Shown here: positions 19,301 to 25,300 of the stretch, piece after piece
How positions within the stretch are numbered: position 1 is the stretch's first letter
Layout of the letters: each line of letters starts with the position of its first letter
From: Macrostomum lignano
Taxonomy: Eukaryota
Assembly: GCA_002269645.1 (NCBI GenBank)
Contig: NIVC01003181.1
Location: forward strand, 1 to 64,000
Direction: 5' to 3'
DNA length: 64,000 nt
Translations under genes and position numbers: made by a program
Notes under the pieces: generated by a model
Database searches by the model: none
Told to the model about the DNA's origin: nothing
What the model saw: only the letters and a program-made list of their open reading frames with translations

Positions 19301-22300
19301 AACCAAGAAGTCAGTCTCGACAGTCTTCAGCACTAGGGCAAAGGTAGCATCGGCTGCCTCAATGGCGAAGGCCTGGGCAGGCAGAGGTGACCCGTTGCCG
19401 CTGTACAGCCGACTGTCAAAGACTCCACCAGCCGATCGAGTTTCAATGATGGCGCAGCTGTTGAAGCTGGGCAGCGAGGCGGTCTCAAAGCGGTAGACGA
19501 ATTTCTTATTAGCTGTCGGTTTGAAATTCCAGCTGCAATAGTAATGCGAGCTGGAGTTCAGGGCTGTCGCATTGGCCCTGTGGCTGCCGATGGTGCCCGC
19601 GGTGCTATGGACTGTCTGGCCGTTGGTGGGACAGGCTGTAAGAGTTCCATGTCACGGTTGCGGTTTAGTCTGTATGCGATCTGTGTACAAATGGTTGCAC
19701 CTGCGCTCACCAATAAATCATCACTGCGCTCACCGATAGATCATCACTGTGCTCACCAATAGATCATCACTGTGCTCACCATTAGATCATCATCACTGTG
19801 CTCACCAATAGATCATCACTGTGTTCACCATTAGATCATCACTGTGCTCACCAATAGATCATCACTGTGCTCACCAATAGATCATCACTGTGCTCACCAA
19901 TAGATCATCACTGTGTTGTATCCCCCTTCCTCGCTGGCACGGCCGGGTTGGGCGACGGGTAGCGGTGTCGGGGTTCGGGTACTAGACTGCCCAGGGCTTA
20001 CGAGCTCGATCGGCGACCCCGAGGCGTACGGACACTTCGGGGGGAGGTCAAGGTTGAGAAGTCGAGAGAGAGGGGAGGGGCGGCTGTGGGCAGGCGGCCA
20101 CTCGACAGCCTGGTGAGTCAAGGAAGAGAGAGAGGGCTGCGGGCGGTCGGCCACTCGACAGCCTGGTGAGTCAAGGAAAAGAGAGAGGGCTGTGGGCGGG
20201 CGGCCACTCGACAGCCTGGTGAGTCAAGGAAGAGAGAGAGGGCTGCGGGCGGTCGGCCACTCGACAGCCTGGTGAGTCAGACTGAGGAGAGAGTGAGAGA
20301 GAGAGAGATCAGGAGAGCGACCCCGAGGAACACAGGCAATTGTCTGGACAGCTTACCGGGCCGGGTCGATTATAGCACTCATACACGGGAAGGCCGATCG
20401 ATTGCAATAAATTGAGTCTTCGCAGTAAGAGACCGTCTTTACGGCTGATCGCTGGTCACGTTCGTTTATTTATCGCGGTGGGCGCAAATGGGCGCAGGCA
20501 CGGTGAGAAAAGGGGCGGGGTCTGAGCGTCGCCTTAAATAACGAGTAAAAAGGGGCAGGGGCGCAAACAAGGGGGGGAGAAAGGGCTTAAACAATGGAGC
20601 TGATTGACAGCTGATTGGCTGCGGCGAGGGGAGGGTGAAAGCGCGCACGGCCAGGGAGAGGGAGAGAGAGCAGAGGCCCAGCCAATCAGCACGGCTAGCC
20701 AAAGGGCTAAACAGCCAAGGCGAGAGAGAGAGAGAAAGAGAGCAGAGGCTCAGCCAAAGGGCTCATAGCTCCAGACTGGCTTGAGCCGGGGGGGGGTAAC
20801 AATAATCAACTACCAAAGTCAACAACTATCAAAGTGCACTTGCACCAAGGGAGCACTGTGACACAGGTCACAACACCCTCCCCCCTAAAAAAAAGAAAAC
20901 GACGCGCTTTGACTGAATGAAAATGAAAAAAAAATGTAATGAAATGAAACTGAATGAAAGAGACCAAGAGTGTCAGGCAGCGGCCGAGAGCGCAGGACAG
21001 GGGCCGAGGATGTCGGACAGGCCGAGAACACCGGGCACGGCCGAGAATGCCGGACTGTGGCCGAAAACGCCGGGCATGGCCGAGAACACCGGGTACGGCC
21101 GAGAATGCCGGACTGTGGCCGAAAACGCCGGGCATGGCCGAGAATGCCGGACAGCGGCCGAGAATGCCGGGCAGCGGCCGAGAATGCCGGGCAGCGACCG
21201 AGAACGTCGGGCATGGCCGAGAGTGCCGGACAGCGGCCGAGAATGCCGGGCAGCGGCCGAGAATGCCGGGCAGCGACCGAGAACGCCGGGCATGGCCGAG
21301 AGTGCCGGACAGCGGCCGAGAATGCCGGGCAGCGGCCGAGAATGCCGGGCAACGACCGAGAGCGCCGGGCATGGCCGAGAGTGTTCCCCGCCCTTCCTTC
21401 GGGGCCGCTCCCAGTGCCAAACAGAGGGATCACAACGACGATCAGAGGAGAGATGGGATGAAATGAAGGAGTGAAGGTCTCTTGCCCGCCCTGGCATCCT
21501 GCCCCAGAACCCCCTAGACCGCCACCTCCGCCGCCCGGCGCAACAACCCCAACACGCGTCCTCCGTCGATTAGTTCAAACTGAGGGATCGCAACACTCAT
21601 GACGAACCGAGTGCTTCGCTTGAAGGCAGGCCGCCGCCAGACACGCCGAGCATGACCCCGACACTTGGCGCTGATGTCACGGAGAATGAACTTGACAGTC
21701 TGAGCCAAAAGCTCGGCGATTTCGCGTCGATGATCCAGCCGCTCGCTGCCGCACAGTCCCACCATTTCAGTCAAAAGCCGGAACATCGCAGCTGGACTCC
21801 CCGACAACAAAGCGTGCCGAAGCTCCGACCGGATTCGAGCTCTTCGCTGCGTTGCCTCCCCGCTCCAGGTGTATTCCACCTCGGTACTCGGCTCGCTCCT
21901 CATCAGCCACGCTGGCGACTCCCGTTGGTCGATGACGAGCTCCGGTTCGTCTTCTGACATCGAAGTTTCGCCGTCGAATTCATTCAAGAGCTCTTCTTCC
22001 TCTGACTGCGTGATTTCACAGCAGCTCTGAGCAGTCTCCTCGCCGCCGCAACCACCACGCTCGCTTCCTTCCGACTCCCTGTCCTCGTCTGACTCTTCTG
22101 TTTCGTCTTCAATCGTTACGACAAACTCCTCCGGGACGCACATCCCATCGGCGGGACAAAATACCGGGCGCACTCGAGCGGGTTGCTAACGGCATCCTGC
22201 CCGAACCGGTCGTACAGCGCTCGTCGAAACGGACACAGCAGGACCGCACTCGCATGCTGCAGCCTCTGGAAATTCTCCGTTCCACCGGGTCCACACTTGT

Positions 22301-25300
22301 CGGGGTGCCGTCGCAGGCTCTCACGGCGGTACGCACGTCGCAGCTCCTCCTCCGTCGCGAAGGGGCTGACACCAAACTCGGCGTAGAGGTCCATGCCCGG
22401 AAAGCAGTGCCTGCAACAACCACGACTCACTTTTGAGAGCAGGGCAATGGTTCCTTCGAGCCTCTTTGGGGCGCCGATCCTTCATCCCTGATGGCAGGGT
22501 TGGGCAGGTGGGACCTCCACTGACGGGCCTTAAGAGGGGAAATATATATTTTTGTTTATGAAGCAGAGGCAATTTACACGAGCCCAGTTTTCAATAACGC
22601 GGGTGATGACGCAGACGGATGCTTCGAACCAAATGTTGATGACGCAGGTGATGACGCGGATGATGCTTCGAACCAATTATTTATGACGCAGGAGATGACG
22701 CGACATTGCGCACGCACTCACGTCCGCTCTTAATAATAAACGGGCGTTCCATAACGCTGCGGAACCCTTCGATCCCTCTGGGGTCGACCTTCGATGACTT
22801 CAACTGGCGCTTCCGGCTGCGGCTGCACTCCTGGCTGCTGCACATCCATTGGTTCTCCCTCCTCTCGAACCCGCCCGGAATGTCGCCACCATCGCTCCTC
22901 ATCCTCATCGTCCGATTCCTGCGAGTCCTCCCTGACGGATTCCGTCTCTTGAGCAGGACCTGGGTGGTACCTCCTTGGTGCAGGACGCCGAGGGCCACCG
23001 GTGCCGTCGACCGGGTACTTCCGGTACCGAGGCAGGAGGTTGTTAAAGTGCACCACCTTGATCGGCTTCCGTCGACCTTCCTGTCGAATCCTATAGCGCG
23101 TCTCCGACAGCTTCTCGAGAACTACGGCAGGTCCGGTCCAGGGTGAGTGGAGCTTCGCTTTGGCACCGGCCTTCAACACGGGGTTGTAGACGAACACCTC
23201 GTCGCCAGCCACGAATTCTCGACCCTTCACCTTCCGGTCGTACCAGTCTTTCTGCACTCGTTGATATGACGTTATTCTCTCACGCACCACCCGATGGGCT
23301 TCCACGAGCGTCTCCCGCAGGTTCTGGACTTCCTCGCAGTACGGTTCGATGTCCAGTGGGCGCGCCACTCCCAAGTCAACTGGCAGAGACATCTCGCGAC
23401 CATGCAGAAGGAAGAAGGGTGAGTAGCCGGTGCCGCGGTGCACACTGGAGCGATACGCCATGAGCGCCGGGGCAACGAATTCGTCCCACCGCCTCTGATC
23501 CGGCTCCTTCACCAGGTGCGCCCGGATCACTGCAGTCAGCGTCTTATTGAAGCTTTCCACTTGGCCGTTTCCAGAGGGGTGATAGGCGGTCGTACGCGTC
23601 TTTCGGATATTCAGACTTTCGCACAGCTGGCCGATCAATTGCGACTCGAAATTGGCTCCCTGATCCGAGTGGATTGTTCCTGGGGCTCCGTAGTGACAGA
23701 CCCACTCCTCGAGCATTGCCCTTGCACAGGTGCTGGCCGTCTGATCTGGCACCGGTACTGCCACTGGCCACTTACTGAACGCGTCCTGCATCGTCAGTAT
23801 GTATTTGTTGCCTCGGACGCTGGTTGGCAGTGGTCCAATCAAATCCACCATCACTCTTTCAAACACATGGCTGCTGGGAATCGGCTCCAATGGGGCCTTC
23901 CGCCGCATCCCGGGCTTGCTCCGGTTACAGTCGTCACACCTTCGCACAAACTCCTCGACCTCTCGCTTCAAGCCGGGTCTCCAGAATCGGTTCCTGACTT
24001 TCTCCAGAGTCTTTGCTACGCCGAAGTGTCCACCTCCTGGTCCAGAGTGCAGCGTCTGCAGAGCGTCGGGGATCAATTTCTTCGGGAGAACAGCCCGCGG
24101 TGGGTGACGTCCCAGATCCTTGATGACGAGGGTGTTGTCCACAATTTCCAGCCGAGGCTTTTGTGCCCAGATGGCTCGGGTCGTTGGTGACGCACCCCGA
24201 GGTGGCTCTTCGTTTGCTCGGCCGGCGTGCATCGACTGGTAAACTGGAGCGATGTCGTTGTCCACAGCTTGTGCTGCTGCCAGCTCATCTCGGCTGAGCA
24301 ACCCGAGCAGCGTCGTTACCCTGACCCCGGGGAGGTCATCAGTCCGGCACGACGGGCAGTTATCCATTTCGGGATGTCGTCGCGGCGGCTTGCGTGACAG
24401 CGCGTCCGCATTCTGATGACGCGCCCCTGGCCGATGCTCCACTGCGAAGTCGAATGGCGCCAACCTCTCCATCCACCGAGCCAACTGGCCTTCCGGCTGC
24501 CTCATACTTCGGAGCCACTGCAGACTTGCGTGGTCGGTGCGCACCCGGAACCTCCGGCCAAGTAGATAGTACCGGAACCTCTCTGCGAATGTCACCAGCG
24601 CCAGGAGCTCGATTCGTGTCGTGCAATAGTTGAATTCGGCCCCTTGCAGACGCCGACTCCCGTACGCAATAACCCGCTCTGACCCGTCTTCTTGTACCTG
24701 CGACAAGACTGCTCCGAGACCCTGTCGGGTACTTCCATCGGTATCCAAGATGAACTCACCAGCCGTGGGGTCGAAGTTCGGGTAGGCCATCACGCGGCAA
24801 CCGGTCAATTCTTCTTTCAGCTTTTTGAAGGCCTCATCGTGTTCCTCTCTCCAACTGAACGGCTTGTCTTTCTTTGTCAGATCAAAAAGTGGTGCAGCGA
24901 CTATCGAGAATTCTGGTATGAAGTTTCGGTAGTAACCAGCCAGACCCAGGAACGACTGAAGGTCTTTTGCATTTCTTGGAATGCTCCAGTCACGGACTTC
25001 CTTGATCTTCTCCGGGTCGACATCGATTCCGTCCTTTGACACGACGTGGCCAAGGAATTTGACCTCATCGGCCAGGAATCTGCACTTAGATGGCTTTAGC
25101 CTCAAGTTGGCTGCGCGCAGGCGCTGGAATACCGCCTCGAGATTCGTTAGATGCTCGCTGACAGTTCGGGACCAAATGATGATATCGTCGATGTAGACGA
25201 GCGCCATTTTCCACAGAAGGTCGTGTAGTACCATATTCATCAACCTTGTGAATGTCGCCGGCGCATTGGTCAATCCGAAGGGCAGCACCTTGAACGCGAA

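What the first reader, a model, noticed from the sequence alone, without database searches (positions are those of the whole stretch)
21514..22394. Gypsy LTR retrotransposon carrying a J-domain (Hsp70 co-chaperone) gene in the env position
Seen: a canonical J domain (helix I DLY..FGV, helix II EELRRAYRRESLRR, HPDK, helix III FQRL..A..VL, RRALYDRFG) lies inside both LTRs, co-oriented with gag-pol, 335 bp after the pol stop. An overlapping -1 frame adds an acidic tract, a predicted helical segment and a basic patch (RRVWRRPAFKRSTR). It is intronless and has no signal peptide or TM, so it is not env. Known: HPD-containing J domains stimulate Hsp70 ATPase, and polyomavirus T antigens use an N-terminal J domain to recruit Hsc70. 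I do not know of a J-domain ORF as a standard Metaviridae component. Inference: the element encodes its own adaptor to recruit host Hsp70, for VLP assembly or uncoating, Pol folding, or remodelling a host restriction complex bound by the C-terminal region.
Basis: partly seen in the sequence, partly recalled or inferred. Interest (0 to 1): 0.92.

Follow-up and report, generated by a model that had tools for sequence, protein, structure and literature searches.

The report
Retrotransposon-encoded Hsp70 co-chaperone gene
Several jumping-gene families in a flatworm genome carry an extra gene, kept by selection, whose protein has the handle that switches on the cell's Hsp70 chaperone; no report of this in retrotransposons was found, and what the protein acts on is still unknown.

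Summary
Confirmed and wider than reported. The window holds a young Ty3/Gypsy element (LTRs 960/964 identical) with a J domain (PF00226, E 1e-13) 335 bp after pol. The 'overlapping -1 frame' is only a break in this copy: 14 of 22 sister loci carry one open reading frame of the 293-aa length, 13 with HPD. Eight element lineages in this genome carry the same third ORF directly after integrase (integrase 38-59% identical between distant lineages): J domain, acidic linker, and a basic five-helix domain with no known match. It is under purifying selection (dN/dS 0.24, integrase control 0.26; J domain 0.09). One lineage adds an HP1-like chromodomain; one young lineage has lost HPD but stays open. 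Splice signals predict an env-style spliced mRNA from a mini-exon in the LTR, not seen in the four runs laid. Four relatives occur outside this assembly, context unknown. It is not env. Best reading: a trans-acting class C J-protein that brings Hsp70 to a nuclear, chromatin- or RNA-bound complex (about 45%); the target is not shown. Side finding: this family's LTR holds 33 of the 35 nt of the host spliced leader.

The parts
27674..28637 (-). 5' LTR, 964 nt, TG...CA ends
19914..20875 (-). 3' LTR; 960/964 identical to the 5' LTR; 4-bp target duplication at 19910-19913 and 28638-28641
28163..28195 (-). 33 of the 35 nt of the host spliced-leader exon inside the LTR (twin at 20403-20435); lacks the leader's last two bases
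   Evidence: very high word depth and loose ends here
28117..28142 (-). predicted 26-nt coding mini-exon in the LTR: ATG at 28142, splice donor after 28117, phase 2, in frame with the J ORF
   Evidence: prediction only, no joint
27655..27672 (-). primer-binding site (tRNA-Lys type; label recalled, not from a call)
   Evidence: sequence
26651..27466 (-). gag, open part (capsid-like region, CCHC knuckle); broken near 27426 in this copy
25473..26726 (-). pol 5' part: aspartic protease and start of RT
22730..25417 (-). pol 3' part: RT, RNase H, integrase
22410..22412 (-). predicted splice acceptor, 16 nt before the J-domain ATG
22209..22394 (-). ORF3 J domain with HPD and basic helix II
21862..22208 (-). 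ORF3 post-J helices and acidic disordered linker (net charge -26) with a SUMO-interaction-like motif near 22096-22125; frame broken near 22148 in this copy
21514..21861 (-). ORF3 C-terminal basic five-helix domain with a basic loop; no known family or fold match
20876..20886 (-). polypurine tract

Best explanation
Shown (about 0.9): ORF3 is an accessory gene of a group of Ty3/Gypsy lineages in this flatworm, kept by purifying selection, built as J domain + acidic linker + basic helical domain. Predicted from sequence (about 0.7): it is made from a spliced subgenomic mRNA that skips the primer site, gag and pol, so it acts in trans and apart from the Gag-Pol polyprotein. From established knowledge (about 0.8 for HPD-bearing lineages): it is a class C J-protein, in which the J domain fires host Hsp70 and the other domains choose the client. 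Inferred: the client is nuclear and bound to chromatin or nascent element RNA. The basic domain and the SUMO-interaction-like motif (and the HP1-like chromodomain in lineage D) bring the protein to silenced copies, and Hsp70 loosens a silencing or RNA-retention complex so that full-length element RNA is made or exported.
For: Position directly after integrase in fetched DNA of 8 lineages; 93 of 147 integrase matches have an ORF3 match within 2 kb downstream (80; 13 more counted by hand). dN/dS 0.24 (0.13-0.44) over 327 codons, integrase-tail control 0.26; J domain A vs B 0.09; C-terminal domain 0.15-0.21 in three pairs. HPD in 7 of 8 lineages and 3 of 3 full-length outside relatives; HPD is essential for Hsp70 stimulation (PMC13254874, passages). 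Lineage D carries PF00385 (E 1.4e-12) between J and the C-terminal domain, closest to Swi6/HP1 chromodomains. C-terminal part net +6 to +13 in 8 proteins where it was delimited. SIM-like motif in 8 of 11 linkers against 1.2 expected from shuffles. Acceptor 0-16 nt before the J start in 7 of 7 lineages, directly adjacent in 3 of 7 against a 2.6% background. The donor block is shared by A and B LTRs, phase 2 in both, and B has no Met at the J start. Precedent for a spliced nuclear accessory protein: Cer1 CERV (PMC10309623).
Against: No client, location or activity was measured. Lineage H has 11 full-length open copies (521-575 aa frames) with a J-like domain lacking HPD. Contigs of three RNA-guess runs pass through 22410 with no joint to the LTR donor. 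The chromodomain is in 1 of 8 lineages and appears to keep two of the three aromatic cage residues (read by eye, cage positions recalled). The SIM pattern was chosen after seeing the sequences, related proteins were counted apart, and D, F and P0008 lack it. All five lineage-B copies seen have a damaged or missing ORF3. Heat link absent: no heat-shock element in the LTR.
Confidence: 0.45

Rival explanations
1. Particle or integration-complex remodeller: the C-terminal domain binds the element's own Gag shell or integrase and Hsp70 takes the complex apart (uncoating as auxilin does for clathrin, or release of integrase after strand transfer); the chromodomain of lineage D would steer integration.
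For: Same J plus client-domain design; linkage to pol in all 8 lineages; chromodomains on Gypsy integrases are known accessory domains (PMC6338049, passages).
Against: ORF3 is outside the polyprotein, so it has no automatic route into particles. Deep ORF3 and integrase distances do not track each other (Mantel rho 0.06, p 0.40; six deep lineages rho -0.15), weak evidence against tight co-evolution with integrase since the deep nodes are unresolved.
Confidence: 0.27
2. Scaffold or decoy: the J fold serves as a binding surface or blocks a host J-protein/Hsp70 step (for example small-RNA loading), and the selected activity lies mainly in the C-terminal domain.
For: Lineage H keeps an open ORF3 without HPD in 11 young copies; pseudo-J proteins exist (PMC13254874).
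Against: HPD is invariant in the other 7 lineages at 24-50% overall identity between distant lineages; the J domain is the most constrained part in A vs B.
Confidence: 0.15
3. General folding helper or host-benefit gene: it raises chaperone capacity for Pol folding or stress survival without a specific client.
For: Some LTR families of this species are heat-induced (PMC12801592).
Against: No G/F-rich region, zinc finger or DnaJ C-terminal domain; a conserved private domain implies a specific client; no heat-shock element in this LTR.
Confidence: 0.09
4. Neutral passenger: a captured host DnaJ fragment carried along without function.
For: Lost or damaged in 9 of 22 family-A loci and in all five B copies seen; 54 of 147 integrase matches show no ORF3 match, mostly untested.
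Against: dN/dS far below 1 in every pair and domain tested except the A/B linker (0.48, up to 0.91); open frames in many copies of five lineages; losses in single copies are expected for a trans-acting gene.
Confidence: 0.04

Closest known systems
Non-env ORF3 genes of LTR retrotransposons (bdelloid DEDDy exonuclease and GDSL esterase ORF3s; PMC5408684, passages)
   Same: Captured gene in the env position, family-specific gain and loss, typically a separate spliced message.
   Different: Different domain; DnaJ and chaperone occur 0 times in that paper.
Cer1 CERV of C. elegans (PMC10309623, abstract and section 15) and HIV Rev
   Same: Accessory protein from a spliced mRNA of an LTR element, working in trans in the nucleus on full-length RNA.
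   Different: CERV has G-protein-like and cysteine-loop domains and no J domain is described in what was read; function of ORF3 is untested; sequences were not compared.
Polyomavirus T antigen J domain; phage-encoded J protein; HSV-1 ICP22 mimic (PMC13254874, passages)
   Same: Mobile-element-encoded N-terminal J domain that borrows host Hsp70, joined to a targeting part.
   Different: DNA viruses, not retroelements; no LxCxE motif in 6 of 6 ORF3 proteins checked; no helicase or origin-binding domain.
Class C J-domain proteins, including chromatin-acting ones such as Arabidopsis SILENZIO (search listing and abstract start only)
   Same: J domain plus client-specific domain, without G/F region or zinc finger.
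   Different: Those are host genes; the ORF3 C-terminal domain has no match in Pfam, PDB or viral models.
Chromoviruses
   Same: Gypsy element carrying a chromodomain (lineage D).
   Different: The chromodomain sits inside ORF3, not on integrase; the window element has none.

Membership tests
Ty3/Gypsy (Metaviridae) | LTRs with TG...CA, primer site, polypurine tract, target duplication | tested here: met
Ty3/Gypsy (Metaviridae) | gag, then protease-RT-RNase H-integrase order | tested here: met
Ty3/Gypsy clade (Gmr1/Osvaldo, Mag, CsRN1, Mdg3) | RT tree placement against reference elements | not tested
env-bearing elements (errantivirus-like) | ORF3 with signal peptide and transmembrane segment | tested here: not met
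   best 19-residue hydropathy 1.08-1.49 in 6 of 6 proteins; Pfam gives no env family
J-domain protein | PF00226 above cut-off and four-helix J fold | tested here: met
   lineage H is below cut-off (18.9 bits)
J-domain protein | HPD motif and basic helix II | tested here: met
   window copy and 7 of 8 lineages; 4-6 K/R in helix II of 5 proteins; lineage H lacks HPD
J-domain protein | stimulates Hsp70 ATPase | not testable with these tools
   bench assay needed
Class A/B J-proteins (DnaJA/B) | G/F-rich region, zinc finger, C-terminal beta domains | tested here: not met
   architecture is class C-like
T-antigen-like proteins | LxCxE Rb-binding motif after the J domain | tested here: not met
   0 of 6 proteins
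CERV/Rev-like regulators | made from a spliced mRNA | tested here: inconclusive
   signals conserved; no joint in 4 runs of contigs
CERV/Rev-like regulators | nuclear, needed for export of full-length RNA | not testable with these tools
   bench work needed
Chromovirus | chromodomain at the integrase C-terminus | tested here: not met
   none on the window pol; lineage D has it in ORF3
Known fold for the C-terminal domain | structural match above background | tested here: inconclusive
   best Z 8.3, rmsd 3.2 over 102 residues, within the range for generic helical bundles; no Foldseek hit at E<=0.001

The most novel reading that the evidence does not exclude
A retrotransposon-encoded Hsp70 adaptor that reads silenced chromatin (SUMO, and methylated H3K9 in lineage D) and uses the host chaperone to strip silencing complexes from the element's own copies: a transposon counter-defence built on the T-antigen principle, with a new client-binding domain.
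Probability: 0.3. Interest if true: 0.92.

Novelty: new variant of a known kind. Interest (0 to 1): 0.78.

Why it matters
Accessory genes of LTR retrotransposons are known, and viruses that encode J domains are known, but no retrotransposon-encoded J-protein turned up in ten literature searches, and a 2026 review of J-proteins has no passage on transposons. Here the gene is old enough to be shared by eight lineages, is under the same constraint as the integrase tail, and comes with natural variants (chromodomain gained, HPD lost, gene deleted) in a transgenic-tractable animal. That makes it directly testable which step of retrotransposition needs Hsp70-driven remodelling, and whether elements actively undo host silencing. 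It also shows that dozens of 'DnaJ genes' in this genome are element-borne.

Tried and rejected
Programmed -1 frameshift in ORF3: rejected. Chimeric assembly: rejected, the same layout recurs in 22 loci. Env: rejected. Joints 22841, 21654 and 21585 to 28163: read as leader-bearing host mRNAs with chance 20-26 nt matches, since the same contigs leave the element again (loose ends at 22816 and 21634); not used. Expression: no holder is on record as RNA; three runs guessed to be RNA cover the whole element flatly at depth about 3-25, which cannot show ORF3 expression. Donor gene of the J domain: tree of 154 rows x 73 columns unresolved, careful search unfinished; one origin not rejected on 9 element rows against 36 of 141 others (AU p 0.65); a post-helix-III signature is in 9 of 9 element rows and 2 of 141 others. 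Host DnaJ genes of this genome were located but their sequences were not compared. Integrase/ORF3 co-divergence: only shallow groups agree. Relatives elsewhere: 0 of 160 metagenome and viral loci held the C-terminal domain or pol; P0008 context not found; two word-index searches with the domain gave only M. lignano models, P0006 and P0059 (top 8000 candidates scored). Atlas: no hit, then only hits under 0.9. Fold of the C-terminal domain: no match, which does not show a new fold. Heat-shock elements: none in the LTR. Heat-stress table of PMC12801592: DnaJ rows could not be tied to ORF3. L238 was taken on the wrong side of integrase, so the 49% family is untested. Complex prediction (C-terminal domain with Gag and integrase, or with itself) was not available. 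LTRs of lineages C-H were not obtained, so their donors are untested. Earlier findings: none. bioRxiv supplements were closed and the group's earlier LTR survey was not seen; either could mention the domain.
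Full report
The element. The window is contig C3181 of a 764-Mb genome; database names of near-identical proteins give Macrostomum lignano. A Ty3/Gypsy element lies on the minus strand between LTRs at 27674-28637 and 19914-20875, 960 of 964 positions identical, with primer site, polypurine tract and a 4-bp target duplication. 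Pfam finds gag with a CCHC knuckle, protease, RT, RNase H and integrase in Gypsy order. This copy is broken in gag, twice in RT and once in the J ORF.

The observation. The J domain is real: PF00226, 51.4 bits, E 1.2e-13, starting 335 bp after the pol stop. The second frame is not a separate feature. Among 22 family loci, 14 have one open frame of the 293-aa length (13 with HPD; one of these has lost the J-domain Met), 4 have single-base breaks and 4 have deletions. Contigs from 4 of 4 runs are uninterrupted there. Counts may include allelic duplicates, as the species is a hidden polyploid (PMC12801592).

A shared third ORF. Searching the genome with an open copy (P0002) gave 154 matches, many full-length at 30-35% identity. 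I fetched representatives. In 8 lineages (A window, B L061, C L065, D L066, E L067/L069, F L068, G L073/L072, H L236) the ORF follows the integrase stop on the same strand, about 100-590 nt away. Between distant lineages integrase tails are 38-59% identical and ORF3 24-50% (H not included). Of 147 integrase matches tabulated (150 listed, 3 second fragments dropped), 80 had an ORF3 match within 2 kb downstream, and 13 more by hand from the lineage H search: 93 of 147. All 22 matches at 92% or more had one. The other 54 are mostly families at 36-51%; both lists are capped, so their lack of ORF3 is untested, except L237, a B copy that has lost it. Four relatives come from outside: P0004 and P0006 (Logan), P0008 and P0059 (JGI/IMG); P0006 is only 46% identical to its best match here. 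Their hosts and contexts are unknown, so a wider range is suggested, not shown.

Selection. Codon counts (Nei-Gojobori, codon bootstrap): E vs E2, 327 codons, dN/dS 0.24 (0.13-0.44), against 0.26 for the integrase tail of the same pair; J 0.25, linker 0.25, C-terminal domain 0.15. A vs B: J 0.09 (0-0.19), linker 0.48 (0-0.91), C-terminal domain 0.19 (0-0.42). Deep pairs are near saturation, so their values are rough. Within family A there are too few changes to judge (7 synonymous, 11 not).

Protein anatomy. AlphaFold gives a confident J domain with two or three short extra helices, a disordered linker and a confident helical C-terminal domain (pLDDT 89.7, pTM 0.83 for the domain alone). The domain has no Pfam family and no fold match above the background for helical bundles; it was found only in ORF3-type proteins. 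HPD is kept in 7 of 8 lineages. Lineage H has an open frame in 11 full-length copies but no HPD. Linkers are strongly acidic and C-terminal parts basic. A SUMO-interaction-like pattern occurs in 8 of 11 linkers against 1.2 expected, but the pattern was set after looking and rows are related. Lineage D has a chromodomain in the linker, closest to Swi6 and HP1. There is no transmembrane segment, G/F region, zinc finger or LxCxE: not env, and class C-like.

How it is expressed. An acceptor lies 0, 0, 0, 1, 2, 7 and 16 nt before the J start in C, D, E, F, G, H and A; direct adjacency in 3 of 7 has p about 6e-4 against 306 background ATGs (motif set chosen after looking; G counted to its first J codon). 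The only GGT(A/G)AG donor in the A LTR and leader follows 28117, 26 nt after the only nearby ATG, in frame with the acceptor at 22410. The B LTR has the same block (23 nt, same phase; alignment score 48, maximum 38 in 300 shuffles), and B has Leu where A has the J-domain Met. These signals fit the motifs published for this species (PMC8629364); several acceptors also fit its trans-splice motif, so leader addition is possible for C, D and E. Against: contigs of the laid runs pass through 22410 with no such joint; contigs drop rare forms, so this is weak, but the splice is unconfirmed.

Mechanism. Shown: a selected accessory gene. Established: J domains with HPD stimulate Hsp70, and class C proteins aim it with other domains (PMC13254874). 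Inferred: the aim is nuclear, from the chromodomain, the basic domain, the SIM-like motif and the separate message, with CERV as the nearest working model. I put 0.45 on relief of silencing or RNA retention, 0.27 on remodelling of particle or integration complex, 0.15 on scaffold or decoy, 0.09 on general folding help, 0.04 on passenger. No partner could be tested.

Origin. The J tree is unresolved; one origin is not rejected, and the shared private domain argues for it. Integrase and ORF3 trees agree only at shallow nodes, so exchange of ORF3 between lineages is open. The donor gene is unknown.

What is in print. Ten searches listed no paper on a J domain in an LTR retrotransposon; Macrostomum + LTR retrotransposons + DnaJ gave 0 papers. 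Seen: PMC12801592, parts 1-2 of 6, term search (0 for DnaJ, J domain, Hsp40, ORF), supplement 1 whole, term searches of all 5 supplements; its preprint, term search; PMC8629364, passages; PMC10309623, abstract and section 15; PMC5408684, PMC6338049 and PMC13254874, passages. All others: listings only. Subscription papers and repeat-library entries were not searchable.

Verdict. A real, selected, apparently undescribed accessory gene: a new variant of the known class of non-env ORF3 genes, working on the principle of viral J proteins. Interest 0.78.

Noticed in passing
window 28163-28195 and 20403-20435: Both LTRs hold 33 of the 35 nt of the published M. lignano spliced leader, just upstream of the predicted mini-exon. 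The stretch has 84 exact matches in the genome, in paired LTRs of this family and in arrays spaced about 11 kb or more that may be the true leader genes; it is absent from the lineage B LTR. Probably captured by reverse transcription of a trans-spliced RNA (inference). One search found no report of this.
   Followed up: partly
L066:299-1282 (lineage D, about 20 copies): ORF3 with an HP1/Swi6-like chromodomain inserted between the J domain and the C-terminal domain.
   Followed up: partly
L236:671-1852 (lineage H) and G000 C471, C513, C441, C525 (lineage G): Longer ORF3 (frames of about 520-600 aa) with a further C-terminal region shared by G and H; H has lost HPD. The extra region has no Pfam match in the part held.
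   Followed up: partly
window 15653-30021, minus strand: The element sits in a 23-bp tandem repeat between CUB-domain exons (17448-18296 and 28864-30021), probably in an intron of one CUB gene and in the same orientation.
   Followed up: partly
window about 20950-21390 and 22600-22710: Short tandem repeats in the element's 3' untranslated region and between pol and ORF3; their length varies between copies; lineage B has similar arrays at the same places.
   Followed up: no
window 10647-12197 (+): Single-exon rhodopsin-family GPCR ORF, PF00001 E 4.5e-15.
   Followed up: no
window 2-8000: Array of a 40-nt unit, 194 near-identical overlapping 300-nt matches, at the contig start.
   Followed up: no
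P0001, P0005, P0007, P0156: Public M. lignano gene models fuse ORF3 to element pol or to neighbouring genes and name them 'J domain-containing' or 'CCHC-type' proteins: element-borne J domains inflate the DnaJ count of this genome.
   Followed up: partly
L034:2-2200: ORFs resembling a DNA-transposon transposase region upstream of an isolated lineage B J remnant (read by eye).
   Followed up: no
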